Shown in pieces: positions 22,482 through 62,775 of a DNA stretch of 64,000 bases; position 1 is the stretch's first letter; every line of letters begins with the position of its first letter. The DNA comes from Eledone cirrhosa (Eukaryota). The stretch is taken from positions 281,666,001 through 281,730,000 of the forward strand of contig OZ024740.1 in the NCBI GenBank assembly GCA_964016885.1, in the 5' to 3' direction. Position numbers and translations under genes: made by a program. The notes under the pieces are model-generated. The model was not told the origin of the DNA and did no database searches. It was given only the letters and a program-made list of their open reading frames with translations.

Positions 22482-22662
22482 AATTGTTTCTACTTTAGGC
22501 ACAAGGCCAGCAATTACCCAGTGCATTACTGATACTTTATTTTATCGACCCCGTAAGGATGAAAGGCAAAGTCAACCTCGGCGGGATTTGAACTCAGATC
22601 GTAAAGGGACGTAACTATGCTAGAAAGCATGGCGTCCAACCCTCTACCGATACTGCCAATTT
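22482..22662 (-). mobile_element. SINE family A
   Basis: Consensus match. Confidence 0.9.
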
Positions 22663-29556: not shown

Positions 29557-31384
<1,828 letters not shown>

Positions 31385-31416
31385 AGATCAAAAGATGGTT
31401 AAAGGAGTTCCATGTA

Positions 31417-31483
31417 TTTTATTATGCGCATTTCAAAAACAAACATCATCATGCAATAATATTTGTGTTTTCATCAGATAAAA
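31417..31483 (-). ncRNA. type I hammerhead ribozyme (left-arm copy)
   Basis: Reverse complement of 31614-31680. Confidence 0.8.
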
Positions 31484-31613
31484 CAGGAGAACATGATATG
31501 AAGGCTAAAAAACACTTGTGGATAGTGCAGTTTTAAATCTACATATCTAAATCTACATATTTAAAACTGCACTATCCACAAGTGTTTTTTAGCCTTCATA
31601 TCATGTTCTCCTG

Positions 31614-31680
31614 TTTTATCTGATGAAAACACAAATATTATTGCATGATGATGTTTGTTTTTGAAATGCGCATAATAAAA
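31614..31680 (+). ncRNA. type I hammerhead ribozyme
   Basis: TTTTAT-CTGATGA-AAACA..TGTTTTT-GAAA-T-GCGC-A-TA-ATAAAA; intact core and all three stems. Confidence 0.85.
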
Positions 31681-31803
31681 TACATGGAACTCCTTTAACC
31701 ATCTTTTGATCTTATATTATGCATACTCCAGTCCTACAAACTGTAGAGTGCTTCTTATCCGATATCTGCATTGCTTTATTGTACTACAATAAAACTCACC
31801 TCC

Positions 31804-31879
<76 letters not shown>

Positions 31880-33888: not shown

Positions 33889-34029
33889 ATATATATATAT
33901 ATGGATGAGAAGAGGGCTGTGTGGTTACTGATAACCGGTGTTAGAAGGTAAGGGGACAGAAACAAGAGGTGGACAGTCTCCCGTCAGTAGTTACCTACGG
34001 GTCACAGATGTTTCAGCACATTATTAATG

Positions 34030-34212
34030 AATTGGCAGTATCGGTAGAGAGTCGGACACCGTGCTTTGCAGCATAGAGTTATGGGCCTTTATGATCTGAG
34101 TTCAAATCCCGCCGAGGTTAACTTTGCCTTTCATCCTTACGGGCTCGATAAAATAAAGTACCAGTAATACACTGAGTAATTGCTGGCTTTGTGTCGAAAG
34201 TAGAAACAATTA
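34030..34212 (+). mobile_element. SINE family A
   Basis: Consensus match. Confidence 0.9.
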
Positions 34213-34670
34213 TTAACTATACATCTATCCGTAGCACGCACATAGCCTTTTATCTATCAAAAGGCCTTGAGGGAGAGAAAGAAAAGAAGAAAGAGAGAAG
34301 AAAAAAGGGAAAAAGAGGAAAAAATGGGGAAAAAAACTACCGATAGAAGGGGGAACACGGGACAATGGTACATGTAAGCAAGCAAGTAACCGAGAGAATG
34401 GGGATCATGTTTTTAAAAAGCCGTTGGGTTTAAGCCCGGGGCAAATAATAACGTAGCTAGGTATCCACACGTCTATCCTCAACGAAATCACACGAGAAAG
34501 AGAGAAAGACGGAGGAAACGGAAGCGAGAGAGAGTAGAAGGCAGAGAGGCTGAGTGAGAGGGATAGAGAGAGAGAAAGTGAGGAGGAGGGAAGGGGGTTA
34601 ATCCAAACGGGTCTAGAACGCACGTGGACTGACGACCAAGCGAAATCGATAAAAAGAAAGGGAGAGAGAA

Positions 34671-34710
<40 letters not shown>

Positions 34711-35601
34711 AACAAGATACATATGCACGCTTCACATCGTTATTAGTCTCAGTGAGATATCCCAACATTATGTTCATATAAATTATGAATCGTTTAGAGC
34801 TGCGACATTAAGTTTATACAGTGAAAGAATAAACAAAAGGAATTTGCTTTTGATGTATATTATAAAAGGAATATTTGCAATCGTAAATTATAGCAAGTCT
34901 TTCACAGCAGAGCATTCTGCTTCGAGAGCTATACCGGTGTTCCAGTGTTATAAAAGTAATAACATTTCTGCCATCAAAAGTATAAGGCTATCTGTCATGT
35001 GGAATTAATTATAACAATGCCTGGAACGGAGAATTGTACATAAAGCCAAACACTTATAATGTTCAAAATGACATTAACGTTTTGGGGTCATATATACTCG
35101 GTAAGAAGTCACAAAAGTACATTATAACGTAAGCACAGATAATCAACATCTGTTGCACGATATAAAAAACGGATCGTGTAAAAAGGATATATATATGACA
35201 AACAGTGTCGTGGGGTTATATCAGTCACGTGGGGGGACTATGTATAGAAAAATGTCTGTGTATCATTTTAATATGTGAAGCGAAATAAAGTTTCTGAAGA
35301 TTAATCGATATTAACGACATTTGTGCAAACATGCTCCTACTTTTCGTTCTCCTTCTCCTCCTCTCCTCCTCCTCCTCCTCCTCATCATCATCATCACCAT
35401 CACCACCACCATCATCATTATCACCATCATCATCATCATGATAACAGATTAGACGAGATAACGACAAAATATTTTTCATATACTCCATTTTTCGTGTGTG
35501 TTTTTCAGTTAGATTCCATTCGCTATACCATCCATTTTGTAGAGTGGATTGGTTGCATTATATCTTGGCACATGCACTATATACAAACGCTGTACTGAAA
35601 A

Positions 35602-35790
35602 TAATTGTTTCTACTTTGGCACAAGGCCATCAATTACCCAGTGCATTACTGGTACTTTATTTTATCGACCCCGTAAGGATGAAAGGCAAAGTAAACCTCG
35701 GCGAGATTTGAACTCAGAATGGCAAGGACCGTAACTCTATGCGTCAAAGCATGGCGTCCGACCCTCTACCGATACTGCCAATCCACCGCC
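35602..35790 (-). mobile_element. SINE family A with TSD
   Basis: CTGTACTGAAAATAAT at both flanks. Confidence 0.92.
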
Positions 35791-36099
35791 TGTACTGAAA
35801 ATAATAAGTGTGTGTTATTTATCCCCGAGAAGTTACAAATAAAATATTACACATCGATCAAGTTTGCACAATATGTGAAAATCTTTCAACCAGAACTGTT
35901 TGCTTACAAAATCTATAAGACATCACTGTCTTCCATGCCTCGTAAGTAAACGGATGATGAAGATGAGAAATAACTCCGAAATATTTGTATACTCCACTCC
36001 TATATCGATGTTCAATTTCACTCCATATATTTTAAGCTGTGATGTCATCACAGCTTAAAATGATTAAAGCGAGACTAAATGTACGTTCATTATATGTAA

Positions 36100-36197: not shown

Positions 36198-37896
36198 TAT
36201 GTAATGTCTTCAATATGTTCATTCTTTATTTGGTTAAACATACAGAAAAAGAAAGCAGTATTAGAAAGGACAATAAATGACACAAATATGAGGAAAGGGA
36301 TGGGAAGAGCAAGGACTGCTTGATAAAGAAATTATATATGTAACCCATAACAACGCAGTTAAAATGCGTATCAACCAGTATAGTCTATATATTGCACGTA
36401 GCCATAACACAGTAAAGTTGAACATAGTATAATGAATCACTAACTACCTTGAAAAAGCATATTCATCGATGGGAAAACCACATCATCATACATAACATTG
36501 TAAGAATTAAAAATCAGACATGCAAAGTCGACGCAAACCCATTAAATACCAGAATACACTCTCAATAAAGAAGAACAGGCTAAACTATATTATCAACATC
36601 AACCATCACACAATCCCCAGCTTAGAAACTGCTGTATATTGATACTACCTGAACCTAGAGGTATACAGTAATAGATTTGGCATTGGAGAAAATGCAAAAC
36701 TACAAGACGGCAATACTGTAGCCCATATAGTAACACACTGAATGTCAGAATGCAAACTGCAACTACAAAATATCTTTTATTGTCAGCATACTCTATTGGG
36801 TTTGCTTTAAAACAATTTTAAAGGTCTCCAGCTTGCCACTATGCAAAGATAAACCATACGTAAATACTGACAGGATTATTAATTTTAAGTAAAGAGTTTT
36901 TGAATTGAAATCGTTCTGCTCTATCAAAACTTATACGTTTTTACACATGTTACGAGTACCATAAATTCACCAAGGAAATTGAATGAATGAAGCAATGATA
37001 TTCTTCATGGAATAAAATAAATTATAAAATAATAAGCTCTTTCTAAAGATATATTTTTCATCTCTTTGCAAATTATGGGATAATGGCAAAATATCACGAC
37101 TAAATATTTAATTTAAATACATGCACCTGTAGGATATGGTACTGACGAGAGTCACATATAAGATCATGTTTTTTTTTCCTTTCTTTCAACGGCAAGGAAT
37201 ACATTCTATGAATTGCTTTTTTTTTTTCATTCTTAAAATTAATCTCTGTGTTTCTGTCTAATTTCATTTCTAATCCAGCACATTATATGATGCGTGTGAT
37301 GAACACGAAACTTATTTTCATCTATATTTGGAAAATTTATTTATCATTCTAGAAAGTAAACTTTATTGGTGATATTCATGAGGATAAACATATTTTCTCG
37401 TTGATTTTCGCATTTTATTTTGCTATGTTTTTAAATAAAAATGTGAAAAAAATTGCATTTCTTTTTATAAGTGGTCCTATCAAGAATTAGAATAGAGTGA
37501 CTTTAACACTGGAGAAAATTAAACAAATATTTTTTCATGGACAAACATGTATTACCTTCTTAATTAGATACTAAAAAAACAAATGTGTAAGGATAGAGAT
37601 GATATTGTTAGACATTCATCTTTTTCTGAATATCAGCGAAAAAAATAAACAATACTACATGGTATTTTCAGACGAAATTGAAATTCTCTATGAAGCAGAA
37701 GATTATCAGCAAAAACACACTATTCGTTAACGATATGATACAAAATAATGATGAGAACCAGTACATTGACGTACAGAATAATGAGGAGAAAAATATATTC
37801 TAAAAATATATATAAAACTAGACGGTGGACTAGATGTCTTAGTTAAACTCAATGTGTATATCAATATTAAGCACCACAAAGATGCTTTGCTTCTAA

Positions 37897-38065
37897 TAAT
37901 TGTTTCTACTTTAGGCACAAGGCCAGCAATTATACCAGTGCATTACTGGTGCTTTATTTTATCGACCCCGTAAGGATGAAAGGCAAAGTTAACCTCGGTG
38001 GGATTTGAACTCAAACCGGAAAGGGCCGTAACTCTATGCTGCAAAGCATAGCGTCCGACCCTCTA
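37897..38065 (-). mobile_element. SINE family A
   Basis: Consensus match. Confidence 0.9.
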
Positions 38066-39745
38066 CTGATACTCCCAATACACCGCTTTGCCTCTAATAA
38101 TAAATGTAGGTTAATTAAGCCAGCTAAGTTGGGGACTGGATAAATTAGTAAGAAAACTTGATGTAACTGTAATAACAATATAAGGAAAGTAAGAAACACC
38201 TAAAGAAGCATAGTTATTAACAACGTGACTCTACCTCACTCTCGAAATTTATCTAAACCCTGAAGGACAATAGTGTATGAAACCTACGTGCCATATAGAG
38301 TGTAAGAAATAATTGATGGAGTAGCAAATACAACATATGCATTGCGAGAAAGTTGAAGAAACTAACCCTACCTGCAAATATTCTCAGCTAAAACGAAGGA
38401 ACCTTTCCCCAAAGTTACACCCCAAATCCTTGAAACTACGAGCTTTTACACACGTCTTCATCCACAAATCTATCACAGGTAAAGTCTCCATCCTCCTTCC
38501 AACCCCGTCTTTTTCATCTGCTCTCCAACAGCTAAACATAACAATACAAAATACAACTAATATTACATATCACCACTTAACAATATGCAGAATATCAAAC
38601 GTTTCACCCTCACCACCACATGCAATCAGACATTCAATTACTGCTGATACTAGCAGCTTTCTTTGCATAACATCTAAATAAATATAACTAGATAATGTGT
38701 AGTCTGAGAAGCATTAAACAAACGCATGCTTTACAAAATCAAGTTAATACCCCAAACTCACTGAACGCTACCCTCAGGTGAAATGAATATTTGAGAACAA
38801 ATGAAAAGTATCACAACACTAAATGCTGTATGGTGTTTATGGTGGAACATACTGCAGGGGCAAACAATATATAGTCTACTGTGACCCACAATCAACATAT
38901 TACGAATAAAAACTCTGAAACACTTTGGAGTGCAAGTGGCATAGAGAAGGACATCGTTCTTCCAAGGATACACGACCACTGAAGATTGAATTGCAAGTAC
39001 AGAAGTAAGTTATTGATGTCCAATTACTATGACTCAAGACGAAACGTGGCCAAAAGTATTAGGTCGTCAATTATGAAACTTGTTGAAATTTGTTTTTTGT
39101 CTAAAAATGTCTACAAATTTCCTGCTTGACGACCTAATACGACCATTGACATTATTTTCTTGTCGCTGTGAGCATTCTACTGAACCACGGTAATACTCTA
39201 ATATGTTTTCGCTTCCAAGTTTGCGTGTGTCTTTGAAGTGTGGTGCTCATCGACGGCAGGTGCACGAATGCAGTACGATTACAAGATCACCATTATCTTA
39301 TCCTATCATAATTTGTTATTTTACTTTAGGACTCTATATTTCTCTTAACTGCATTACAGGTCTCATTATCTATTCATTTATTCATTATGAACTGTAAACC
39401 CTCTTATTCTACTTTCCACCTTAGGCTAGAATTAATTTCAATTTTTTTTATTATAAACCAAAACACCTAGAGATTTGGTTGTAATTTTAATTTTAATTTT
39501 AATTTCCTTCATAATTTCAATTACTAGTTTTAAAACTAGTTAGAATGTCGGTCCAATCCGTAGCAGTATTTGTTCTTGCTTTTTTCATTCTCAATTCAAA
39601 TCCCATTGTCCCATTGAAGCCAAATTTGCCATAGAGCCCCGGGGGGGGGGGGATAAAATAAGTACCAGTATTGCATTGGGGTCGATTTGATCGACTTTCC
39701 CTTCCTCCAAAATTGCTGGCCTTGTGTTTATAGTAGGAATGGGAC

Positions 39746-41180
39746 GAACGGACCGGTTAAATTGCTAGGGGTCTGGTTCGGTCCGGACCTCCAGATGGAC
39801 AGAAACTGGGACGAGATGACGAGTAGGGTGGCTTCTCTCACCCAGAAAAGGGCAGAGAAGAAGCTATCCCTGAAAGGTCGAGCTGAAGTGGCAAATGCAT
39901 ACATCGCGTCCGTCATCTACTACCGCCTGATCGTCGTACCTTGTCCTAAGCCTCGCCTGTCTGCGCTGGAGCGTTTGCTCTTTCGCTTTTTGTGGAAGGG
40001 ACGCGCTCCGATGGTCAGGCGGTCCATCTGCTGTCAACACCCGCTACGTGGAGGGCTGGGCCTGCCGTGGCTGATGATGCGCAGACACGCGCTCAGGCTA
40101 CGACATCTCCACCTCTTCCTCGACAGTGATCAGGTGTGGTCACCGTTTGCTAGACGCGTCTTTCCCCAGCTCGTCTCCTTGACGGAGCTGCAGTCCTGGG
40201 TCAAGCGAAGACCGAGAGGGAGCGCTTGGAGACTGGAATGTCTTCAGGCGCTGGCAGCCCTCGACCAATCGGGCAATGTGATCGGTGGAAACTCCACCTT
40301 GGCGTTCTATAGAGGATTAGTGGAGGGGAAGAGCGACGACGTACTTGGCGAAACTCTAGGCATCGACGAAAATCAACTAGCCAATCTCTTCGGAAGAACT
40401 TTCGGGTCGGGGCCTATGGACAACTTCCAGAAATCCCTGGCCTGGCAGTGTTACCGAGGGGCTTTGCCAGTTCGGGATAAACTCTACAGGCATGGAGGTG
40501 CCGTCAGCCGGGCATGTCCGAGATGCGCGCAGGGCGACGAAACCGTCCTGCATGCACTCGTCCAGTGTCCGAGCATTGCTGACTTGTGGGTTTATGTCGA
40601 ACACCTGCTGTCACGTGTAGAACGGATCCGGCTATCAGCTGAATCCATCGTGAGGATTGCCCCGCCCTCTTCCTTTAGCCGGGAAGGACAGGCAGTTTTT
40701 ATCTGTCTGGTAGCCATAGCGAAAGAGATAGTATGGTGGACGCGTTTGAAAGGGCTGAAGACGAGCACTTACCTCTTCGGTGATGCCCTGATTAACTTTT
40801 TCAAATTTCATTTAAAAGGAAAATCAGGGTAGAGAGGGAAGTGCTCTCTTCCCAGCATTTTGTTGAAAGATGGGTGATAGAGGCAAGAATGGCACGAGTG
40901 AATGGGCCCACTCTGAGTATCTGTCTGTAAATTAAAGGTGGAAAACTGGGAGAGGGCACTTGCCCTGGTGGTCAGGGTTACTGTGGCTTTTTGATGGGCT
41001 TTCTCCACGATGGCCTTCGGAAGTCTCCCCCCTATTGGGGAATTTTTTCATTGTTCTATTATTACATCTTCTATTTCTTGTTTTTTACACGCAGAAATGC
41101 CCATTTGTACCGCCCTGTATTCTCCTGTACTGTCCTTAATGTCTACTTTATGTAGACCCTTGTGGTTAATAAAGAAAGCA
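39746..41180 (+). mobile_element. Tx1/L1-like LINE, 5'-truncated, young
   Basis: Open frame LLGVWFG..LSLKGRAEV..GGLGLP..CPRCAQGDETVLHALVQC; same 3' UTR as the 15.3-15.57 kb copy; (ATT)n tail. Confidence 0.93.
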
Positions 41181-41214
41181 TTATTATTATTATTATTATT
41201 CTCTTATATAAATA

Positions 41215-41350
41215 ATGATTTCTTTATTGGCCACAAGGGCTGACATCAAGAAAAACATTACAGACGGCACAGGACGGTATGATTTGGGTTTTATGCGTGT
41301 ACAGATTTTTATTATTTATATAAGAAACGAAAATGAAAAAAAGACATAGA
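41215..41350 (-). mobile_element. Tx1/L1-like LINE extreme 3' end
   Basis: Reverse complement resembles 42850-42960 (CCCTTGTGGCCAATAAAGAAATCATT). Confidence 0.75.
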
Positions 41351-41364
41351 AACATATTTTTTAG

Positions 41365-41583
41365 GAACGATCGACTTTCGTCAAATCGGACCGAGGGAAC
41401 AATCTTTCCGTTGGTCTTTCCAATTGCTAATACTATCTATCGGTCGCAACTCCAGGTAGAAGGAGCAACGTGAAATAAAGTGTCTTGCTCAAGGACATAA
41501 CGCATAGCCTGGTCCAGGAATCGAACTCACAACCTTACGATTGCGAATCCAATTCTCTAACCGCTCAGCCACACGCCTTCACT
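41365..41583 (-). mobile_element. tRNA-derived SINE family B
   Basis: GGCGTGTGGCTGAGCGGTTAG (A box), GAGTTCGATTCC (B box), GTCCTTGAGCAAGACACTT core. Confidence 0.85.
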
Positions 41584-41584
41584 A

Positions 41585-41865
41585 TATATATATATAAAGA
41601 AAAAGAGATGAAATCGAAAATGCAACTGGAGTCTTATTTTTTTTAAAAATATATATATTTATTTGGTTCCTTTACCGGTTTCGCAGTTCTTCTGCTTTTC
41701 AAAAGGTGAGTTGAGATGGAGGGTCTGTGGTTTTTCTCACATGTGATATATATTTTTTTAAAAAATAAGACTCCAGTTGCATTTTCGATTTCATCTCTTT
41801 TTCTTTATACTTTCACTCGTGTAGGACACCTCGGTTATTTTTCATTTTGTAAAAAAAAACCTCAC

Positions 41866-41875
<10 letters not shown>
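41585..41875. mobile_element. fold-back copy of a PLE 3' terminus
   Basis: 41595-41743 matches 49510-49655 directly; ~41747-41872 matches the reverse complement of 49446-49570. Confidence 0.9.
41669..41706 (-). ncRNA. minimal HHR with U3-A8 covariant core
   Basis: CCTT-TTGAAAA-GCAG.AAGAA.CTGC-GAAA-CCGG-TA-AAGG. Confidence 0.75.
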
Positions 41876-41902
<27 letters not shown>

Positions 41903-41907
<5 letters not shown>

Positions 41908-42960
41908 AATAAAAATGAAAATTCAAACAATGGAAAATTCCCCAATAGGGGGGAAACCTCCGAGGGTTACTCGAGGCGAAAACCACACAAAAGACCACGG
42001 CCACCCTGACCACCAGGGCAAGCGCCCTCTCTCAATGTTTTCCCTATTCCTCAAACTACAAGCGTATATTCAGAGCGGTCCCGTTCACTCGGACCATTCT
42101 CGCTACATTCACCCACTTTTCAACAAACTTGTTAGAAGACAGCACTTGCCTCTCCACCTTGATTTCCCTCTTCAAGTGAAACTTGAAAAAGTTAGTCAGG
42201 GATTCGCCGAAGAGGAAAGTGTCTGTCTTTAACCCTTTCAACCTTGTCCACCACACAATCTCTTTCGCCATGGCCACCAGGCAGATGAAAACTGCCTGCC
42301 CTTCCTCCTCGAAGGAAGACGGCGAGACCATCTGCGCAATGGACTCAGTCGATAATCGGATCGGTCCTACACGCGACAGCAACTATTCGACATAGCTCCA
42401 CAAGTCAGCAATGCTCGGGCACTGAACGAGTGCGTGTACGACGGTTTCATCGCTCTGCGCGCATCTCGGATAGTCTCGGCTGACGGCACTTCCGTGCCTG
42501 TAGAGCTTATCTCGAACCGGCAAAGCTCCCCGGTAGCACTGCCAGGCCAGGGATTTCTGGAAGTTATCCATAGGTCCTGGGCTGAAAGTTCTCCGGAAGA
42601 GAGCAAACAGCTGATCTTCTTCGACGCCTAGAATCTCTCCGAGAACGTCGTCGTTCTTCTCCCTCCACTAGTCCTCTATAGAACGCCGAGATGGATGTTC
42701 CACCGATACTGTTGCCCAGCTGGCAGAGGGCGATGAGCGCCTGGAGACATTCCAGTTTCCAAGCGCTATCCCTCAGTCTTTTCCTGATCCAGGACTGCAG
42801 CTCCGTCAAGGAGACGAGCTGTGGGAAAACATTTCTCTTATATAAAAAAATTAAAATCTTTACACGCACAAAACCCACATCGTACCATCCTGTACCGTCC
42901 TGTGCCGTCTGTAATGTTTTTCTTAATATCAGCCCTTGTGGCCAATAAAGAAATCATTAT
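41903..42960 (-). mobile_element. Tx1/L1-like LINE 3' part with inverted terminal piece
   Basis: Minus 41903-42830 encodes the ORF2 C-terminus (MDNFQKSLAWQCYRG); 42830-42960 is a plus-strand 3' end. Confidence 0.88.
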
Positions 42961-43720: not shown

Positions 43721-44637
43721 AGATCCACAGACATAGAACTTTTGTTTCATGTGAAACTAGAGATTATAGAGAAGATTCCAGGACTTATATAGCTTCCAAG
43801 TGCGGGTGGAGGGAGCTACAAGTGAAACTATCGTTCTGGCTTCAAGTCATTCTGCTTTCAAATCTTGCCAAGATGCCGATTACAATGAAGTACTTGTCAT
43901 GTATTGTGTTAGATATAATCGACTTTCCCATTCCGTCAAAATTCAGGCCTTTTGCTTGAATTAAAAATCCTTATTAGTGTAATTTTAATTGTGTATTTTT
44001 CTGTCTGGTTACATTAAGTATATTAACTTTTCCTTCGCCCCTAATATTATATGCTTATACTAATGCTTAATAGGTTGGTACTTACGGAAGAATACGAAGA
44101 AGAATACCAACGAATATTCGAAAAATGTATAGGGTATTTAGTTAAGTAGATTATAGCTAGGCTATTGCTACTGTCACTAGACACATACATATATTTGTAT
44201 ATAACCTTTTAGCCTGCTTTATTTATATCTGTACTTCAGTATTTCATTTGAACGTTTCACATTTTCTTTCAAGATTAATATTTGCAATTAAAGCAACTCA
44301 TATCCATTTTGTCATCTATATTTATGCTTATATTTCAAAGTGGAAATAAGAGCTGGACAAGTTTAAAACTGTTGTATCTTTCTATGTAAATTTGAAAATA
44401 CTGAAACGTGTCTAGAGCCCTTATCAACGTAAGACGTAGAAGCCATAATATAGGAATCTGAAGTTCATATTCCATTTTGAAAGGCTTCGAAAGCATGCAA
44501 ATTTAACCCACACAAATATACTGAGTATACATACATACTCACACACACGCACACATACACACGCGCGCATATATATAGCGAGAGAGTGTGTGTGAGAGAG
44601 AGATGGCTAGATAGATGATAGGTAGATAGATAGATAT

Positions 44638-45458
44638 ATTTCTTTTATTTGCCACTAGGGCATCAAAAGTGGGACAAGTACAAAGGGGGGAGTTTACACA
44701 AAAAGGCGTCCTCAATAAGGAGGAGGCAATAACAAAATATAAAAATAAAATAAGATATAACAAAAAATAAAATTTTTAACAAAATCCTCAATAGAGAGGA
44801 GGCGCCTTGGGGGGTCGCACACACCCCCGAAAAAAGTGTGCAACCCTTCTCCTCAGGAGCACAGAGAAGGGGTGCTCCCTTGGTCTTTCATCTTCCTCAC
44901 CTATAGTCTGATGTAGAGTGAAGGCCCATTCACACGGGCCATTCTCGCCACTTTCACCCATCTTTCATAGAAACGGCTGGGGTGCAGCACCTCTCTCTCC
45001 ATCCTGATCCTTCTTCCGAAATGATATCGGAAGAAACGGACCAGTTGTTGGCCAGAGAGAAAGGTGCCCGACCTCAGTCCTTTCAGACGCGTCCACCATA
45101 CAACCTCTTTCGCCATGGCTATTACGCACAGAAACACCGCCTCTGCTTCATCTTTGAAGGGGGGAGGCGGCTTGATCATTACAATAGACTCGGTGGTCAA
45201 CCGGATCGGTCCCACCCTTGACAGCAGTTGTTCGACATAGCCCCACAGATCGGCTACGCCCGAGCAGTGTACTAATGCGTGTGCAACGGTTTCCTCGTCG
45301 CACACGCATCTGGGACAGATCTTTTTGGCGGGGTCCCTACCCGGGCGCCCGTGTCTGTAGAGCCTTTCTCGAACGGGTAAAGCCCCTCGGTAGCACTGCC
45401 AGGCCAGGGACTTCTGGAAGTTGTCCATAGGTCCCGGGCTGAATGTCCTACTGAACAG
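44638..45458 (-). mobile_element. Tx1/L1-like LINE 3' part in (GATA)n
   Basis: ORF2 C-terminus homologous to the 39.7-40.9 kb copy; GATA repeats on both sides. Confidence 0.9.
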
Positions 45459-45459
45459 G

Positions 45460-45531
<72 letters not shown>

Positions 45532-45534
<3 letters not shown>

Positions 45535-45968
45535 ATTTCTTTATTAGCCACAAGGGCACAAAAGAAAGGGACAAATACAAATAGGGAGTTTACATACTGG
45601 TATATGAAAATAAAACTATTAATAAAATAACAAATAACAATTGATATCCCCAATAGGGGGGAGGCGTAACACAGGGGTTGTACACACCCGGAAAAAATGT
45701 ACAACCCTCATCTCCAGGAGCACCAAGAGTGAGTACTCCCTTCCTCTCTTCCTCTTTTTCCTCAACCTACAGGCTTATATAGAGAGAAGGCCCAACCACT
45801 CGGGCCATCTTTGCCACATTCACCCACCTTTTATAAAATTTACTGGGGTACAGCACCTCTCTCTCCATCCTGATTCTTCTTCCAAAATGATATTTGAAAC
45901 AACGAATCAGTTGCTCGCCGGAGAGAAAGGTGTCTGACCTCAGCCCTTTTAACCTCGTCCACCACACA
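45532..45968 (-). mobile_element. second (GATA)n-flanked Tx1/L1-like 3' fragment
   Basis: WWTRLKGLRSDTFLSG..; (GATA)n at 45460-45532 and 45981-46064. Confidence 0.88.
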
Positions 45969-45980
45969 TCTACTATCAAC

Positions 45981-46066
<86 letters not shown>

Positions 46067-48139
46067 GTGATTGTATAAGTTTGAGAAATCGCAGAATAAG
46101 AATAGCACTAAGTTTATACAGTTTGATATCTCTAACAACTACTCTTCGATCTCTACAACTCTTTTAGGTAAGGCCCTAAACTTTGCTAGCTTACACACCG
46201 ACCTTACATCTGAAGAAATTAACATTATTATCCTAGCTAGGAAAACCTTAATTGAGTTCAACGGAGACTTGTGGACTAGGAGAGACTGGCCGGACAATTT
46301 TGACATCACCGTGAGATCCACGGACTCATCCCAGGTGACGGATCTGGTGGGCGTCTACATCCTCGACTGTCTTGGAGGGGAAATGCCCCATTTGGGAGGT
46401 GGGGCTAACCGTGACGACGTTTTGTTTACTGTGTCGTATCATAATAAAAGTATGGTAAAGAGGGTGAGGAAAATACTAAGCAAATTCTTCAACAATATAG
46501 ACATAAGTATAGTGTTTGAGGAAAACCTGAAGATAGTTAATTTTCTAGATGTTACACTTAACCTCAATTCAGGACTCTTCCAACCCTACCACAAACCCAA
46601 CGAGAATTTAAATTATGTCAACGCAAAACCGAACCACCCTAGAATAGTCACTAACGGTATTACAAAAAGCGTCTCTAGTAGAATTTCAGGACTATCTTCC
46701 AATGAAGATACATTCGATAGGATCTCAAATTACTATAATAGCGCCCTGGAACACACGGGGCATAGACAGGGAATCTCATTCAAGCGTCCATTAAATAGTA
46801 GTACCAACATTGCCTGCGATAGCTTAGGCCAAAATAGTGACACTTTAGTTAACAGCAGGCGGGAGGCGAAGGAAGATCAATATAGACTCCATGTTGCATT
46901 GCCTCCTAGTCCCAATGACGACGGTACCAATGAGAATAACCACCCAGATACAAATACGGTGTCCGAGCACCGTACAGCCAGCGGCAACTTTAATTGTAAC
47001 CTTAACTGTAGAGTTGATAAAACAACCGTTGAACGTAAAATAGAACGGAGGTCGGGTAGAGGGAATAGGGATAAATGTAGTAGGCGCATAGTGGATATAA
47101 CCCCGGCTATCGAGGGTAATTCCAATAACTGCACGGGGCGGGGTACACCGCCTCGGAGACTTGGGACGATTCCAAACACCACCTGGACACCTCGGGATAT
47201 CATCGACCCACAGGTAGTTATCAGTTCTAATAGATCAGCAGCAACCAACGAGGCAGGTAATACTAGTATAGATAATAAGAACAAGAGGCATCGGACCAAA
47301 CAAATCTTGTGGTACAACCCCCCATACTCCACCGGCCTGACCACTAGTATAGCTAAGATTTTCTTTAGGGCCTTAGACAAATGCTTCCCTAGATCACACA
47401 AATACTATAAAATATTCAATAGGAATACCATGAAGCTGTCCTACTCCAAACCAGTAATATAGCTCAGAATATAGCTAAGATGAATTATAGTAGACTTAGG
47501 ACAGCCCAGGGCGGGATGAGGCATGGCAGAACTAATGGCAATTTTATGCATTAACGGACTCATGCGCGTGAGGTGAGTCGAGCCACCCCAAACCCTGGGA
47601 ACTTACCCATAGAGCAGACAAGAACTGAGACCCGACACTAGAGGCACCGTGGTTCCTCGGGAACTACCCCAGTCGGTAGCAGAAAATGTAATTGCAGGAA
47701 CACCGCTACTTGCCCCTTGGCTGAGAAATGCCTCACCAAGAACATAGTCTACGACTGTAAGGTCTCCACTTTAGATAGAATGTTCAGGTATGTTGGGGCG
47801 ACTGCCACTGAATTTAAGGATAGATGGTATAATCACTGCCATACCTTTAATAGATTAGATTAAAAAAATAGTACGGCGCTTTCTGAATTAGTCTGGAAGC
47901 TTAAACAACAGAATATAGAACACTCCTTATCCTGGTCCATAGTTTTCTCAGCCCAGCTATATAACGGCAGCACAGGCGTTTGTAATGTATGTATAGCTGA
48001 AACCTTTAATATAATTAGAGGCGGGCCCCCTACTAATAAATAGGAGAGCGGACTTTTTCAACATCTGCCAGCATAGAACCTCGAAAACTTTCCTCGGGAT
48101 TTTTTGGAAAGTAACCTCCCACTTACGCCACCCTTTTTA

Positions 48140-48600: not shown

Positions 48601-49300
48601 ACATGCCATCAATGGGCTTACACACATCCCCGGGGTTTTGTTATTTTATTTTATTTTGAGTTGGGTAACACTCCTCCATCACTCAAACACTTATCTTAAA
48701 AGCCCGAGGGCCCATATGACGGGAAAATGCACACACTGACACCTTAACTCAAATACCCAACTCTACATGGAGAGTTCGATACGAACTGAATACTTGCTCT
48801 ACACATGGATCAAAACATACACTATTTAGACGATACGGATGTTACAATTCAATCGATACACGTATAGCAGAACGTTGAACGGAATTTACTTGCGTGTGTA
48901 TAGGGTTGTGGTTGACCCAAATTTTCTGATTTACATCGTTACAATTGAGATTTGACCAATATAACATTTGTTGTTTTGTAACCTAACTTTCGGTGCATAC
49001 TGTGTTGGTGTATATATTTTTTTCTCTGACCTCGCGTCGGTGTGTGTGAGTGTGTGTGTACTCACTCACACTAATTGTGACCGACCGAAATTCTACAGAT
49101 TTGATGCTGAGGTTAGACCTGTCCAGCGTCTTTTACAGCTATTGAGAGATAGAGACTTGATATATTTATGACCCTGATTGAAGACGATAGCAGTTGGCGT
49201 GTTTTGGCTGCTGAATCTTCATATGGGGAACAAAACTCTAGTGAGTGAACATCGTTAGTTTTTCCTCCCTCATATCAAAGATTTGAAGACATTTGATTAT

Positions 49301-49374
49301 TCACCTGATGAGATCAGTGATAATCGATCATGACCACACGATCGATCTATCTCTTATTGAAACATGTGTCGTGA
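49301..49374 (+). ncRNA. type I hammerhead ribozyme at the PLE 3' end
   Basis: TCAC-CTGATGA-..ATCGATC/GATCGAT..-GAAA-C-ATGT-G-TC-GTGA. Confidence 0.8.
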
Positions 49375-49420
49375 TTAAAATGATTGGAAATTTATACCAT
49401 GCCTTCGGATCTTTATTTTG

Positions 49421-49445: not shown

Positions 49446-49452
<7 letters not shown>

Positions 49453-51900
49453 GTGAGGTTTTTTTTACAAAATGAAAAATAACCGAGGTGTCCTACACGA
49501 GTGAAAGTATAAAGAAAAAAAGATGAAATCGAAAATGCAACTGGATTCTTATTTTTTTTTAAATATATATATTTATTTGGTTCCTTTACCGGTTTCGCAG
49601 TTCTTCGGCTTTTCAAAAGTAGAGTTGAGATGGAGGGTCTGTGGTTTTTCTCACATCTGGTTGGTCTCTGAATGTTACTTGTTTTATATGGAAAAAGTGG
49701 CTCGAAATGCCAGGTTTTTCGAGAAGTAATTTGATTGGTTGGTCAATAATTATAATAAATATCGCGCCAGTTCGCGTTACAGAGTTCTTCAAACAAGGGG
49801 GGGTCGGTTGTCACAGGTTGTTTTTTCATATATGAGTGTTTGAATTTCTTTTTACTTAAAAAAAGGGGGGCTCACGAGGGCTTTTTTTAAATAAACATAA
49901 TTTGATTGGTTATAAATGAAATTATGGCTGTCACGTGAACAAGTTTTTATGAAATTTCCGCGCCCTTATTTGGAAATTCATTCTGTAGCCTTTTTAGAGA
50001 ATTTGATGACAAGTAAAAGATAATGGTCAAGAGAAATTGGATGGGAGAATTGTTCTGGTTCAGTGAATATGGTTAGTTCGCTGGGGTGTCAGAATTCAGA
50101 TTTTCTATTGAATAAAAAAGGTAAAGATATGTATGTTTATTTGTGTGTTTGTGTGTGTGTGTGTTGTGTGTGTTTGAATTTCTTTCGAGTAGAATTTCCT
50201 TTAATTCTTGAAGTCTTTTATTTCGCGTTTCATAATTGGAGACAATTGTGCAAATTCTTCTTGCTAGGTTAAAAGGAATTCTTCTTGCTAGGTTCGTCTT
50301 CGTGTGCTTTGGATGGTTGGAGGTGAATAGCAGGTATTGTTTGGAATCTGTTGGTTTGTAGTGTATGTCAGTTTCAATATTTGTGTCTTTTTTTAAGATT
50401 AAGATGTCCAGAAATGGGAGTTGATGTTGGTTGTATTCCATTGTGAATTGGATGTGGTTATTGATGCCGTTTATTAAGTTTTTGAAATCCTTCAGTTGGT
50501 CGAGTGTGTGGGACCAAAGAATGAGACAATCATCCAAGTAGCGTTTCCAATTCTCTGATAAATATTTGTGGAAGTTCAATCCGTATTTTGATTTGGACTG
50601 TTCATATATCTGGACTTCTAAGTATGCCATGACTAAGTTGGCATAAGTTGGAACGGCTTTTGTACCCATCGCAGTCCCCGATATTTGCTTGTAAGTACTG
50701 CCATCGAAATCAAAAAAGTTGTTCAGTAAGATGAATTTTAATCCCTCGGTGATGAAGCTTTTTTCAATTCTGTCAGGTATCTCATTGGGATATTTCTCTA
50801 GCCAGAATCCTATTGCTTCTAGTCCGTATTGGTGTAGGATCGTTGTGTAGAGATTCACTACACCGAAAGACACAATAATAGTGTCGTTGTTGACATGTTT
50901 GGGGAGGTGGTTTAAGAGGTCCAGATCGTCTCTTACAAGGCTTGGTATGTGTTTGAGAATTGGTTTTAGTAGTATGTCTATAAAGTTGCTCAGTCTGTGT
51001 GTTTCGCATTGTGGGCCCGCTACAATTGGTCTTAATTTAAGGTCTGTGGGGTATTGTGTGTTCACGCAGGCTGAGGTGGATTGTTTACAGGCATCGTTAA
51101 TTATTTTACATTTGTGGATCTTCGGAAGTCCGTAAAGGTTGCTGGTTTTGTATTCAAAATGTGTTAAATAATCGCGTTCCTTTTTAGTTAGGTCTTCCTG
51201 GTATCGATAAATCAGTGTGTTTAATCTGGTCATTGTTTTTTATTGATGGTAGTTTTTTACTCTTTCATAGTAATTAGTATTTTGTAAAAGAGAGAACATA
51301 GAATTTTATATTTTTCAGCCTCCATAATGACAACAGTACTTCCCTTGTCCGCTTCCTTAATTATAATGTCCGTATTGTTTTTTAGTTCATAGATAATCTC
51401 CCATTCCCTTCGACTCGTGTTGGGTTTGGGTTTAGGTTGCGGTAGTTCATGGTATGGGAAAGTAGCTATGTGGTCACAAAATTTGTCCAGAACTCTGTTT
51501 CTACCTTTTGTTGGGTTGTAGCTGCTTTTATTCCGTACAATTGATTCGTCGTTATTCTCCTTGTCAAAGAATTCCTCTGTGAGACGTAATTTTCTACAGA
51601 AGTGTGAGATATCGTCATTTATCTCATTGGGGTTAGAGTATTGTGGTGTTGGTGTGAATTTCAGTCCTTTGGAGAGAATTTTTACTTGTTGGGCTGAGAG
51701 GTTTGTATTTGAAAGGTTAATTATTTTCGGTTTTTCAAAATCGGTTTGTGCCAACGGGTGTCTTGGGTCCTGTAGCCTTGGTCTAAAAAATGATTTTTCT
51801 GGAATGTTTTTTCAATGGTATTATTATATCTAATGGTATTTCCCCTGTTGTTGTGTGGTCTTGTATAGAATTTTCGGACGTATTGAGGTTCGGTTTGTTG
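49446..51900 (-). mobile_element. Neptune-like Penelope element, internally deleted
   Basis: IINLS..LSKGLKFTPTP, IIKEADKG, YGLPKIHK, LRPIV, GTAMG, WKRYLDDC, LPFLDI, YKPTD; most of the GIY-YIG domain lost at the (TG)n near 50150; (TA)n flanks. Confidence 0.92.
49583..49620 (-). ncRNA. minimal HHR with U3-A8 core at the PLE 3' end
   Basis: CTT-TTGAAAA-GC..GC-GAAA-CCGG-TA-AAG. Confidence 0.65.
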
Positions 51901-51987
51901 ATATATATATATATATAAAATAAATAAAATAAAATAAAATAAAATAAAATAAATAAGTCAAATGCTTAAAATGTGGCTTCGATTATT

Positions 51988-52218: not shown

Positions 52219-53010
<792 letters not shown>

Positions 53011-53017
<7 letters not shown>

Positions 53018-53420: not shown

Positions 53421-53523
53421 AATTATTTCTCTACGGTTCTTATATATTTGATATATATTTATCCTTATCGAGCCGTCTTTGGATTTAGTCTTCAAATTTA
53501 TTATTATTACTATATATAAATAT

Positions 53524-53840
53524 AAAACAAATAGTAGAAAGGAAAAAGATTTTTTCTGTAGAAAATGTTGAAGAGATATTTTTGGTGAAATTTCAAACCA
53601 TCAATTTATTTACTATACCGGTTTTAGCATGAAATGCATTATTTAATAATTGTTATTATCATTGCTTTTCACTATTTGTACAAATATGCAACTTAACAAT
53701 ATTCTGCATATCCGCAATTGAAAATGCATTTAATGCTGAAACCGGTGTTGTAAATAAATTAATGTTTTGAAATTTCCTCCAAAATATCTCTTCAACATTT
53801 TCTACAGAAAAAATATTTTTCCTTTCTACTATTTGTTTTT
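53524..53840. repeat. fold-back with ~115-bp arms
   Basis: 53524-53640 pairs with 53722-53839; arm contains GAAA-CCGG-T. Confidence 0.85.
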
Positions 53841-53887
53841 TATATATATCAACGCGTGTGTTACCTTTCTACATTCGATATATATAT

Positions 53888-54100
53888 ATAAACGTTTGTA
53901 TTTGTAAAGCCAAAACAATGCAGGTATGGATATAGAATATAAATGCAAATGCAAAAGATATTGTTGACAATTAGTCTTTTACCTTAAATTTATTTAAATA
54001 TCCTTTTAGGATATTTAAATAAATTTAAGGTAAAACATAATAAACAAATAGAAACGTTTATACCTTATTACACAATGCTTCAAGTGAACTATAACTTCAT
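53888..54100. repeat. shorter fold-back of the same family as 52495-52930
   Basis: Same left arm and same tail ATTACACAATGCTTCAAGTGAACTATAAC; turn point at ~54004. Confidence 0.85.
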
Positions 54101-54899
54101 ATATATATCAGTTTGGCTTTTATTCCAGTGCTTCTTAACCTGTTTTGTGAATTTTCTTGTCGACTCCCGCTCTATTCAGTCTTTTTCGAGTATTAGCCAT
54201 GTACCGGTTTGTCTTACTATAGCTTTAGCAGCACATTCTGGAAATTTGGTTCCAATTTGTATTTTTATCTTTTTCGCAGTTTCTGTAGCTGTTTTTCATT
54301 TTCCTCATAAATATCTATCAATTCACTTTCTATTTTGAATTTCTTGTAGAAAACAATTTGCATGATTTGATCATGTTTCATGTATTTTGTATTAACTGAC
54401 CGGTATTGTTTTCGAGGTAGGTATAATATTTCTACTTAATTATTTTTCTTGTTTTTGTTGCTAGTCTTTTCGTATCCAGTTCAGTACGCTGAAACTGTAG
54501 CTTATACCTGCGGTCGCTAGAATATTAATGTCAATTACCTTATTCTTTGCATTTAGTTCTCTCTTAAGTAGTAATCTAATCCGTCTATAATAAATCTTTC
54601 TAATATTTTGTTTCATCTGAGTGTATTGAATGCCATATAGTTAATTGAGTCCTAAGTATCTCTATGTCTATATTTGATTTAATTCTCTCATCTCAGTTTT
54701 TCACTTATCTCAGGTTTTCTCTTATCTCAGATTTTTACTAGTTTTCCTCTCTTCATATTTGCTTTGGCACATTTTTCTAGTCAAAATTTCATGCCTGTTT
54801 TATTTGTGCGACTTCATGTAGTGTCTGCAGCAATGTTTTTCACGTTGTCTCTCATCTGTAGCGTACAACTTAAGATTGTCTATGTAAAAGGTGTGGGTA

Positions 54900-55161
54900 T
54901 GGTGTGGTGTGCGGTGGCCGGAAGCTGGGGAGTGCTCGACCGGAAGAGTGCTTGACTAGAAGGGTGCTTGACCGGAAGGGTGCTCGAGCGGAAGGGCCAG
55001 CAGATCGGTCTCTCTCTAGTGGTGATCAGAAACGTGGTGGACGTGAGTTTGGCAGCTCCCGGGTATTAATGAGTTGGACGTACGTGGAAGAGGAGAAACC
55101 AGCCATGGGATTTAGCGGCGCCTATGAAAAGCGGTAAGTGAGATAGCTTTTTCTAACCACA
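54900..55161 (+). repeat. 5' LTR
   Basis: Direct repeat of 58389-58635. Confidence 0.92.
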
Positions 55162-55296
55162 AGCTATTTCGGCACTGGAAACTGAGATCTGATTGCAGGA
55201 AAAAAAAAAAAAACTTTCTCGAAAACAAATCTACTGGAAAAACAGAGAGGAGTCTGTTGTTTTTTTTTTATTACGTACCGCAAGACAAATTAGGAT

Positions 55297-58200
55297 ATGG
55301 CGACGAGACTACGAACGAGCGAAGCGATTAGGGCATTTACCGGTGAAGGCGATGTTGTCGCTTGGCTGCGAAAAGTCCAGCTGGTCGCAAGCTTACAGAA
55401 GATAGATGTGGTTGGCCTCATGGCACTTTACCTCGAGGGGACGCGTTGGTACTCTTCCTTGGGTTGGAGGAACACAGCCAAAGGATGCGCAAAAGATTGA
55501 GAGGCGCATGATGGAAGCGTTCGCGGAGGGACCGTTAGCCGCTTTTGCTAAGCTGGCAAGAATTAGATGGAACGGTGAACGCGTTAACATTTTCGCAGCG
55601 GAAATACGGCGATTGGCCATGTTGGCTGGATATCAGGTGGAATGCGAACGCACGGTGTGGTTGGCGTTCATAAATGGATTTCCAGACGACATAGCGGTGA
55701 AACTGCAGCAAGTCCCGGGTTACAAAGAAATGGAGATGCGTTCACTGGTGGAGCAAGCCCGCATCATAGCAGAAGATGCCAAGAAGAGTGTCGCAGCGAT
55801 AGCAACTACAGAGGCTCAAGACAGCCGGCAGCGAAATGGTGAAATGGAGGCAACCACGGCACGCGGTCGCCCGCGAACGTTTAGAGGTCGCTGTTTTAGG
55901 TGCCAGGGCCTGCACATGGCGAGAGACTGTAGAGAGTCAAGGCCGGAAATAATATACTACCAGTGTAAGCGACCAGGCCACATTGCTACTAACTGCGACC
56001 AGGGAAACGATCCAAGGGGAACTACTGCGCCGGTAGTTGCCCCTTACGAGTAGAGGCGCTGCCCGTGGTGGAAGTCTTCGTGAGGGGAAAGCCACAGCGA
56101 GCCCTCGTGGACACGGGCTGTACGACGACACTGGTGACCGCGGGGGTGGCGCAGAGGTGGAGAGGGAAGAGCAGCGTAAGGGCAGTCGACGGCAGGAAAA
56201 TTGAATGCCGAGGTCGCAGCGAGGTGGAGATGGCGGTACGGGGAAGGAAAATAAGGCTTTCTGCCATCGTAGTTGACAACGTGGTAGATGGGATCTGCGT
56301 GGTTATGGGCATGGACGCAATTGACCCTCTAGAAGGCGTCACAGTGAACAACGTCGGTGTGTTGTTTGGCGGCGCTGCATCGGTATGCGCTGTGAGTACG
56401 CGACAGGAGAACCAGAAGGCCCACGAGGAGAAATACCCCGCTTACACTGTGCAGGAAAAGACTTCAAGGCCGTGTTCGATAGGCAGCGATGGGTTGTTGA
56501 GTGATACTGGAAGGAAGAACCACCAACACTGAAGACCAAAGTGGGCTGCTATCAACACACATTGAAGGGAGACATTAGGAGCGAGTTCGAGCGAGAGGTA
56601 GAGAGATGGATTGAGGAGGGCATACTGCTTCCCTGGAAAGAGGAGGTGAAGTGCGGAGTATTTCCGTTAATGGCGGTGGCGCAACCCACGAAGAACAAGG
56701 TGGGGCCGCTACTGGACTTTCGGGAGCTGAACGAGTACGTGTCATGCCACACGGGTGGCGAGGTCAGGGATGTCTGTGGGGAACCCTGCGTGAGTGGAGA
56801 CGCATGACGGGGTTTCAGCAATCGTAGATCTAAAGTCGGCATACTTGCAATTGCATATAGATGAGAAGCTCTGGCAGTATCAGCTGGTCAGATATAAGGG
56901 CCGGACATATTGCCTGACCAGGCTCGGTTTCGGGCTGAGCTCCGCACCGAAGATCATGGCGTCGGCCCTGAAGACCATTCTGGGAAAGGCCGACAAGATG
57001 AAGAGGGCCACTAATTCCTACATTGACGACATCCTAGTGGACGAGTCCGTAGTGTCGGTGGCAGAGGTCACGAGCCATTTACAGGGGTATGGACTGGTTG
57101 CGAAGCCGTCAGAAGCGTTGGAGGGAGGAACCGCGTTGGAACTTAGGCTACGGCGAGACAGGACGGGCGTCTTGGTATTCCAGAGTGGAAATGAAGTTCC
57201 AGAACTGGGCCCAAGTATGAGTAGGCGGGAGCTTTTCTGGGTGGCTCCGGATGGCATGCAGCTATGTCAAGAGACGAGCGGGAGGGGCGACTTGGAGTGA
57301 CAGAGTGGGAGAGAGGGCGGTGGCCATGATGCAGGAGATCTTGGAGAGGGTAAAGGCCGACCCCCAGTGCGGGGACGCTGGTATGTTCCCAAATCGCAGA
57401 GCGGGACCGTATGGTGCGATGCCAGCAGCATACTGCTGGGTGTCACGTTGGAGATAGGAGGTGTTGAGGTCGAGGATGCAGCCTGGCTTAAGAAGAAGGA
57501 CGACTGCAATCACATCAATGTGGCCGAACTGGACGCGGTGTTGAGAGGGGTGAACCTCACCCTGAGGTGGGGACAGCGCACCATCGAGGTACGCACCGAC
57601 TCGGCTACTGTACTCGGATGGGTGAGATCAGTGCTCACCAGTGAGAAGAGAGTGCGAACGAGAGGGGCGGCAGAGATGCTGATAAAGCACCGCCTGGAAA
57701 CTTTAGGAGAGCTGGCAACCGAGTTCGACCTGAGGCTGAGCGTAGTTTTCGTGCCCTCAGAGAAAAATAGGGCGGACGTCTTAACGAGGGTGAAGAAAGC
57801 CTGGATGGAATCGCCGGAGGAGGTAGAAGAGGGGATAGCTGCCGTGTGTCGGCTGACCGAGTCGGGTCTGAAAGGGTTGCATGACATGCACCACATGGGA
57901 GTGGATAGGACCTTGTTCCTAGCCAGGAGAATCGACTCGGACGTTAACAGACACAGTGTTCAATGGGTGGTTAGAGGCTGCGTCCGATGTCAGTCCATTG
58001 ATCCCGCCCCGGGTGTGCACGAAACGGGAAGCCTCCCGGTGGATCGCGACTGGAAGCGATTGGCGGTGGATGTAATGCACTACCGACAGGGAACGTACCT
58101 CTCGATGGTCGACTGTGGACCAGGACGGATGGCGATATGGAGGGAGATGAAGACTGGAACGGCCGAGGAAATCATGCGGACGTTGAGAGGGGTGTTCTTG

Positions 58201-58371
58201 GAGCGGGGCCCTGTGGACGTAGAATCACTGTGTCAACGGACTCCGAGGAAGAGGAAACCCAAAGTGGAAAGAGGAAACCCAACACTTCGGAGATCGCAAA
58301 GAAGTCGCAAACCACCAACTTGGACAGCAGACTTTCATATGCAGAAGGACGAGGGGGAAATTGATCCTTGA
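55297..58371 (+). pseudogene. gag-pol (frameshifted)
   Basis: Domains in order gag-PR-RT-RH-IN across several frames. Confidence 0.88.
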
Positions 58372-58388
58372 GATCAGGGGGGGGGGTA

Positions 58389-58635
58389 TGTTGTGGTGTG
58401 CGGTGGCCGGAAGCTGGGGAGTGCTCAACCGGAAGAGTGCTTGACTGGAAGGGTGCTTGGCCGGAAGGGTGCTCGACCGGAAGGGCCAGCAGATCGGTCT
58501 CTCTCTAGTGGTGATCAGAAACGTGGTGGACGCGAGTTTGGCAGCTCCCGGGTATTAATCAGTTGGACGAAACCAGCCATGGGATTTAGCGGCGCCTATG
58601 AAAAGCGATAAGTGAGATAGCTTTTTCTAACCACA
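58389..58635 (+). repeat. 3' LTR
   Basis: Matches the 5' LTR with several substitutions and a ~15-bp deletion. Confidence 0.92.
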
Positions 58636-62635: not shown

Positions 62636-62723
<88 letters not shown>

Positions 62724-62775
62724 CATAGGCGGTATGCCGGTTCAGCACTCTGTGCTCTTACAGAGCAGAGTATGA

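What the first reader, a model, noticed from the sequence alone, without database searches (positions are those of the whole stretch)
41585..41875. Fold-back visibly built from the 3' end of the PLE family found at 49.4 kb
Seen: the right part is the sense 3' terminus of the Neptune-like PLE (..CCTCACTTTCTAA-(TA)n, same as the reverse complement of 49446-49570). The left part is an overlapping inverted piece matching 49510-49655, including the ribozyme. This is in-window evidence for where the palindromes come from (inference: fold-back priming or template switching during PLE reverse transcription).
Basis: partly seen in the sequence, partly recalled or inferred. Interest (0 to 1): 0.75.

Follow-up and report, generated by a model that had tools for sequence, protein, structure and literature searches.

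The report
Two-ended Penelope retroelement insertion stub
This 280-base fold-back is two overlapping pieces of the end of an abundant Penelope-like jumping gene set head to head in a TA repeat, the family's ordinary way of inserting, and its copies suggest that both cut DNA ends are likely copied from one RNA up to the point where that RNA likely begins.

Summary
41593-41745 matches 49508-49659 and 41746-41872 matches 49572-49446 inverted. The parent is an RT + GIY-YIG Penelope-like element (PLE) with Neptune-type zinc-finger motifs and a U3-A8 hammerhead motif.

It is not a one-off, and 49.4 kb is not the donor (another subfamily). The genome holds 7,021 exact 3'-end hits and 3,837 hits of a second end 62 nt inside. 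Two-armed copies nearly always pair one of each, and either arm can be the longer (18 vs 20), which argues against simple fold-back priming. Short arms stop at 201-212 nt, about 30 nt below a TATAAAA box, but 0 of 21 full-length copies stop there.

Best reading: both target ends are primed at two sites on one RNA, the cDNAs run to the RNA 5' end and are end-joined; this copy then lost about 76 nt of one arm. The architecture and the two RT start sites are published. The pairing and stop statistics were not found in my six literature searches. The scan noted this architecture before, in this genome and another.

The parts
41583..41596 (.). left (TA)n target run; its last TATA is shared with the element's internal TATA (position 62-65 from the PLE 3' end)
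   Evidence: sequence
41593..41742 (-). inverted arm: PLE positions 209 to 62, no tail, subfamily ACCTC
41667..41708 (-). minimal type I hammerhead motif with U3-A8 core, predicted cut after 41673 (3' product starts at position 139)
   Evidence: core string intact in 196 of 240 arms; activity untested
41738..41745 (.). head-to-head junction CACATGTG, centre between 41741 and 41742; GTG is mirror-arm sequence kept before a loss of about 76 nt
41746..41872 (+). sense arm: PLE positions 127 to 1, lacks the hammerhead
41810..41872 (+). tail (about 62 nt) between the two recurrent ends; present on one arm only
41873..41904 (.). right (TA)n target run
   Evidence: sequence
49446..51901 (-). 5'-truncated single-arm copy of the same PLE family, other subfamily (TACTT); RT ORF 50073-51239; about 1.2 kb including the endonuclease missing; TA runs on both sides
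49659..49738 (-). putative promoter in the parent: CCAAT 49738-49734, TATAAAA 49688-49682, boundary C of CAGATGTGAG at 49659 (position 212)
   Evidence: function inferred from spacing and from where short copies stop

Best explanation
This is a short insertion of a Neptune-like Penelope retroelement whose two arms were likely made by priming both cut ends of a TA repeat at two sites of one RNA, each copy likely running to the RNA's 5' end before the two were joined head to head. Shown: family identity, two fixed ends (positions 1 and 62), their pairing, the hard stop at 201-212, repeated origin across subfamilies. Inferred: the endonuclease cuts both strands of (TA)n; one 3'-OH primes at the 3' end (followed by TATATA in the tandem junction) and the other at the internal TATA 62 nt upstream; with no RNase H domain seen, the two cDNAs can overlap; position 212/211 is the transcription start; the cDNA ends are joined by 1-2 nt microhomology (AT here), often with templated inserts. 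In this copy about 76 nt of the tail-bearing arm, with its hammerhead, were lost during or after joining. At most one hammerhead lies on any transcript of it, so it is likely inert.
For: Pairing (first 100 exact hits of each end on C1): of 100 62-ends, 71 have a 1-end partner, 3 a 62-end partner (2 insertions), 4 other, 21 none, 1 unresolved; of 100 1-ends, 47 have a 62-end partner, 1 a 1-end partner (a chaining artefact, L186), 11 other, 39 none, 2 unresolved; binomial p 1e-10 and 2e-20 against random pairing. Of 89 paired entries (L188 parsed twice), the 62-arm is over 15 nt longer in 18, the 1-arm in 20, within 15 nt in 51; 67 short-short, 18 long-long, 4 mixed (Fisher p 2e-15). Arm extents: 41 of 100 and 43 of 100 end at 201-212, only 2 and 2 at 213-299. 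Single-arm copies: 42 of 43 distinct loci start at 206-212 (hand count of the first 100 lines), so the stop does not need a partner arm. TATAAAA at 241 and CCAAT at 290. Arms agree at diagnostic sites in 292 of 305 (short) and 167 of 189 (long) comparisons against 58% by chance, while rare variants are mostly one-armed (71 vs 6; 65 vs 8). L286 carries one novel junction in both arms. PMC11167929 (main text read): a PLE protein cuts and extends both strands, starts RT at two sites that bound the tail, and is predicted to be a dimer.
Against: No RNA run was available, so the start site is inferred. No cap-derived G excess (G 10, A 5, C 36, T 49 of 100 listed), and C212 is often included, which is not the usual purine start. 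PMC11167929 saw no difference in start site between top and bottom strand and priming without homology to the target, whereas both ends here abut TA-like sequence. D. virilis Penelope has a TATA-less internal promoter (PMC2377424, passages). The TATA prediction could not be tested in a second family (0 of 27 hits had shared upstream sequence). Arm concordance could also arise from two RNAs of one subfamily. One possible mixed case with a 210-nt arm beside a 2.4-kb arm (L159, 430-nt gap) was scored 'none'. Exact patterns favour young copies and the sample is one chromosome region.
Confidence: 0.7

Rival explanations
1. Self-priming fold-back: one cDNA (or an antisense template) folds back and copies itself, as the first reader and PMC3846280 propose.
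For: Perfect centres at self-complementary motifs (AT at 209, TTTAAA near 120, (AT)n near 128-131); both arms share variants; 137 exact 40-mer palindrome centres. Short snap-back synthesis may explain the GTG in this copy.
Against: A cDNA primed at 1 cannot give a 62-arm longer than itself, and one primed at 62 cannot give the tail, yet each arm is the longer about equally often (18 vs 20), by kilobases in L076, L080, L083. It would need later deletions to erase the bias.
Confidence: 0.12
2. A single non-autonomous palindromic master element (MITE- or SINE-like) that spread and then suffered deletions; this copy is one deleted daughter.
For: 137 identical centres; 442 half-centre hits, 168 unpaired; 4 of 11 unpaired loci examined keep the centre and lack part of one arm, as here; 0 of 115 long parent-type arms show such a deletion.
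Against: Exact AT-centred arms fall in all four main subfamilies (9, 14, 14, 3), the same ones as long copies (39, 27, 10, 17); many different junctions around one boundary; single-arm copies stop at the same place. Later deletion from a locally formed perfect palindrome remains open for this copy and is part of the best explanation.
Confidence: 0.05
3. Two independent RNAs or two successive insertions into the same TA run.
For: Single-arm copies are common (39 and 21 of 100 anchors had no partner); tail-to-tail neighbours share TA runs (L166/L167); 22 of 189 diagnostic sites disagree between long arms.
Against: Predicts 1+1 and 62+62 pairs and mixed long/short pairs, which are rare; no TA run between arms; L286 shares a private junction on both arms.
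Confidence: 0.08
4. The 212 boundary is an RT stall or a splice acceptor (CAG|ATG) and not a transcription start; or the palindromes are assembly artefacts.
For: CAG|ATG resembles an acceptor; many starts fall at A209; no RNA data.
Against: Long arms pass the site, and 0 of 21 full-length copies stop there; starts include C212, A211, G210 and no common upstream exon appears; short-read contigs from other runs show the 62-end next to TA and several head-to-head joints, though none listed bridges this copy's own junction.
Confidence: 0.05

Closest known systems
Insertion units of endonuclease-bearing PLEs (Penelope, Neptune, Naiad; PMC8557442 passages and section 11, PMC3846280 passages, PMC2377424 passages)
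   Same: Partial tandems with a pLTR, an inverted 5'-truncated copy, a tail at one end only, palindromes at the inverted junction, (TA)n targets.
   Different: Tail about 62 nt against 30-40 nt; the passages read give no pairing counts, no fixed stop of short arms, and read the palindromes as self-priming.
Poseidon element of Anolis in vitro (Frangieh 2024, PMC11167929, main text read)
   Same: Two RT start sites bounding the tail; both strands cut and extended; internal initiation; predicted dimer.
   Different: No one-site-per-strand pairing was seen in vitro and priming was without homology; no model of inverted arms is given in the text read.
[quoted passage not shown]
   Same: Type I motif, palindromic loop 3 (ACCGGT), U3-A8 core variant, pairs on opposite strands 100-700 bp apart.
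   Different: Here stem II is 4 bp; this copy keeps only one motif.
LINE-1 twin priming (recalled; search listing only)
   Same: Both target ends prime on one RNA, giving an inverted 5' piece with microhomology junctions.
   Different: L1 pieces are adjacent with a variable second site; here the second site is fixed 62 nt from the end and the arms overlap by tens to thousands of bases.
Non-LTR retrozymes (bioRxiv 10.64898/2026.07.22.740005, part 1 of 5 read)
   Same: Non-coding, hammerhead-bearing, pLTR-derived.
   Different: Retrozymes are head-to-tail tandems; this is head to head and shows no lineage of its own.

Membership tests
EN+ Penelope-like element (parent family) | RT followed by C-terminal GIY-YIG endonuclease | tested here: met
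   L080: RVT_1 30.1 bits and GIY-YIG 23.4 bits, both above Pfam cut-off; L084 just below both
EN+ Penelope-like element (parent family) | Partial tandem forming a pLTR before the ORF | tested here: met
   84 exact 3'end-TATATA-ORF leader junctions; 26 of 30 examined carry 56 to over 1,500 nt of upstream 3' end
EN+ Penelope-like element (parent family) | Inverted truncated copy and tail at one end | tested here: met
EN+ Penelope-like element (parent family) | Hammerhead in the pLTR | tested here: inconclusive
   Motif and stems present and conserved; no Rfam hit; cleavage untested
Neptune/Nematis clades | CX2-5CxxC linker before GIY-YIG and CCHH motif | tested here: met
   CGRSNCGTC linker, CKGC inside the core, two downstream His, read by eye in the L080 and L084 translations; definitions from PMC8557442
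Neptune clade | RT phylogeny with Neptune and not Nematis references | not tested
   no reference sequences fetched
Hydra clade | No CCHH, DKT for DKG, GxKF not conserved, CxCX5C linker | tested here: not met
   GLKF, DKG and CCHH present against section 11 of PMC8557442
Non-autonomous element with its own master (MITE, SINE) | Copies share one junction and one lineage | tested here: not met
   many junctions, four subfamilies shared with long copies
Non-LTR retrozyme | Head-to-tail tandem units each with a hammerhead | tested here: not met
   head-to-head arms, one motif
Non-LTR retrozyme | Circular RNA expression | not testable with these tools
   no RNA holder listed

The most novel reading that the evidence does not exclude
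PLE insertion is a coordinated double TPRT on one RNA, and the genome records two templates: linear capped RNA that yields stubs ending at the transcription start, and an RNA continuous across that start (a circle made by the two hammerheads, or an LTR-like strand transfer) that yields full copies with a regenerated promoter; a small class of arms ending at position 139 would be a fossil of hammerhead cleavage in vivo.
Probability: 0.3. Interest if true: 0.72.

Novelty: new member of a known kind. Interest (0 to 1): 0.42.

Why it matters
The locus itself is ordinary: one of thousands of such stubs. Its value is as a sample of a natural experiment. How PLEs form inverted arms, the one-sided tail and a fresh pLTR, and what their hammerheads do, are stated as open in PMC8557442, PMC2377424 and PMC11167929. 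The family gives countable predictions (one start site per strand, a stop 30 nt below a TATA box, no stop in full-length copies) that the existing in vitro PLE system and a 5'-end RNA library could test directly. It also explains a large class of TA-flanked, ribozyme-bearing palindromes that could be mistaken for MITEs or a new fold-back family.

Tried and rejected
Rfam scan of the window: 0 hits.
RNA evidence: no RNA holder listed; this says nothing about expression.
Contigs of four runs: no listed piece spans this copy's junction or its empty site, so polymorphism and the timing of the 76-nt loss are open.
Cap-derived G: G 10 (three in one tandem array), A 5, C 36, T 49 of the first 100 of 237 hits; no clear excess.
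Junctions at the hammerhead cut: in the sample 5 and 6 of 100 arms end at 132-139 against 0 and 2 at 140-169; genome-wide 24 of 42 distinct loci start at 137-141 and 18 at 142-158 (hand count of the first 100 lines). Suggestive only: TA and G/C microhomology and the stem itself confound it, and some 135-137 arms have partners that pass 139.
TATA test in the 31.4 kb family: 0 of 27 hits reached shared upstream sequence, so untested, and that family's link to an RT was not shown.
Natively templated CACATGTG: seen in 3 long arms of the TA-type subfamilies, in none of 37 of this copy's subfamily, so it does not explain the GTG here.
RT skipping over the ribozyme: 0 of 115 long arms show the deletion.
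One search used a list with one extra value (22); one search corrected it to 21.
Target-site duplication cannot be read inside (TA)n.
Literature searches gave no paper with pairing or run-off counts; the library lacks most subscription journals, and no supplements were read (those of PMC11167929 and PMC8557442 may bear on tail ends and clade).

Full report
Observation. The two-orientation match is exact as described: the left arm 41593-41745 equals 49508-49659, the right arm 41746-41872 equals 49572-49446 inverted, both about 94-95% identical, between two (TA)n runs. Positions below count from the PLE 3' end on the natural copy in L084. The left arm covers 62-209 in antisense, the right arm 127-1 in sense. 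A minimal type I hammerhead motif with a U3-A8 core lies in the left arm; this core variant is described for PLE hammerheads in PMC4209133 (part 1 read). Its core string is intact in 196 of 240 arms. Rfam does not detect it and its fold is not unusually stable.

Parent. The 49.4-51.9 kb copy has an RT ORF and lacks about 1.2 kb including the endonuclease. Full copies encode RT, a CX4CxxC linker and a GIY-YIG domain with CCHH, which fits Neptune or Nematis and not Hydra as defined in PMC8557442; no tree was built. The family forms partial tandems (84 exact junctions).

The locus is typical. Exact patterns give 7,021 ends at position 1 and 3,837 at position 62, each followed by TA, 3,193 parent-type hits across 212 and 137 perfect centres. 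I took the first 100 hits of each end on C1 and resolved their neighbourhoods. Of 100 62-ends, 71 pair head to head with a 1-end, 3 with a 62-end, 4 other, 21 none, 1 unresolved. Of 100 1-ends, 47 pair with a 62-end, 1 with a 1-end (a chaining artefact), 11 other, 39 none, 2 unresolved. Among 89 paired entries (one locus parsed twice) either arm may be longer (18 vs 20; 51 within 15 nt), and pairs are short-short (67) or long-long (18), rarely mixed (4).

A hard 5' boundary. 41 and 43 of 100 arms end at 201-212 and only 2 and 2 at 213-299. Single-arm copies joined straight to TA do the same: 42 of 43 distinct loci start at 206-212 (hand count). TATAAAA lies at 241 and CCAAT at 290, the usual spacing of a polymerase II promoter (established knowledge). 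A stall would also stop cDNAs that arrive through the ORF, but 0 of 21 full-length copies that reach 201 stop at 201-212 (p 6e-7 against 41 of 72). So I infer a transcription start for the short class, and a template that continues across it for full copies. Against: no cap-G excess, no RNA data, no test in a second family, and a TATA-less promoter in Drosophila Penelope (PMC2377424 passages).

Repeated origin, one template. Exact palindromes occur in all four main subfamilies, as long copies do. Arms of one insertion agree at diagnostic sites in 292 of 305 and 167 of 189 comparisons (58% by chance), while rare variants are mostly on one arm, so later conversion does not explain the agreement. 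This copy's left arm is identical at 118 scored sites to 16 long arms but differs at 5 from the 49.4 kb neighbour. L286 holds a 165-nt unit three times in one arm and its novel junction once in the inverted arm: one locus, best read as both arms copied from a small circular or multimeric RNA.

Junctions. They use 0-2 nt microhomology at self-complementary motifs and often carry short templated duplications, as in polymerase theta end joining (recalled). Here the two ends met at AT; the mirror arm keeps GTG(A) and resumes at 127. Four of 11 unpaired half-centre loci examined are of this kind, and no long arm shows the deletion (0 of 115). Whether the loss came during joining or later is open. 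A modest excess of ends near the ribozyme cut (139) is seen but confounded.

Mechanism. Shown: two fixed ends, their pairing, symmetric length distribution, fixed stop, repeated origin. Inferred: double-strand cut in (TA)n, one primer per site on one RNA, run-off at the 5' end, end joining. This agrees with PMC11167929 (both strands cut and extended, two start sites bounding the tail, predicted dimer), except that no strand-specific start and no target homology were seen there. Self-priming (PMC3846280 passages) predicts a length bias that is absent.

Generality and novelty. Seven other palindromes in the window show TA, tail-less arm, tailed arm, TA by eye; one has at least 39 genomic copies with variable centres. 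The architecture is published, so this is a new member of a known kind. I found no paper with the pairing or run-off counts; supplements were not read. Earlier scan notes reached the same architecture in this genome and the same start-site idea in another genome; I formed my reading before seeing them and do not count them as support. PMC9977147 (passages) added nothing. Verdict: real, ordinary as a locus, useful as evidence on an open mechanism; interest 0.42.

Noticed in passing
L286 (G000:C3:292518500-292522500): Insertion with a 165-nt unit (positions 112 to 1 plus about 53 nt of ORF leader) repeated three times in one arm and the same new junction in the inverted arm; suggests a small circular template. 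The unit lacks the hammerhead.
   Followed up: partly
window 31377-31806: Second family: 344-bp palindrome with a hammerhead motif on each strand and an 85-nt tail; at least 39 similar copies, centres vary around one boundary; no long parent found.
   Followed up: partly
window 29648-30415, 52381-53012, 53514-53849, 53878-54108, 62637-63218, 63216-63332: Further TA-flanked palindromes of unrelated sequence with a tail on one arm only (by eye).
   Followed up: no
window 49299-49376 (+) and 52043-51987 (-): Hammerhead motifs of other families, each beside a TA run shared with the 49.4-51.9 kb PLE copy.
   Followed up: no
L084:3356-4000: An upstream ORF (MPPKSQ..., over 200 aa) precedes the RT ORF in another frame in full copies.
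   Followed up: no
L077, L081, L085 (positions about 394-735 from the 3' end): Many long copies carry a tandem duplication of about 340 nt in the 3' UTR.
   Followed up: no
window 54895-58636: LTR retrotransposon-like element: 268-bp direct repeats, zinc knuckle, protease, RT, RNase H and integrase zinc-finger hits.
   Followed up: no
window 39657-42828, 44594-46138, 14435-15586, 19804-21399: LINE fragments with zf-RVT hits in both orientations; the finding sits between a short high-copy repeat end (41430-41582) and one of these.
   Followed up: no
window 2569-2707, 8030-8208, 8617-8811, 9186-9376, 15695-15902, 22477-22668, 34028-34215, 35598-35834, 37893-38130, 61676-61876: Dispersed repeat of about 190 bp with more than ten copies in the window.
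   Followed up: no
L110, L369, L382: Long copies of the older subfamilies with a native CACATGTG at the boundary (3 of the long arms scored).
   Followed up: partly
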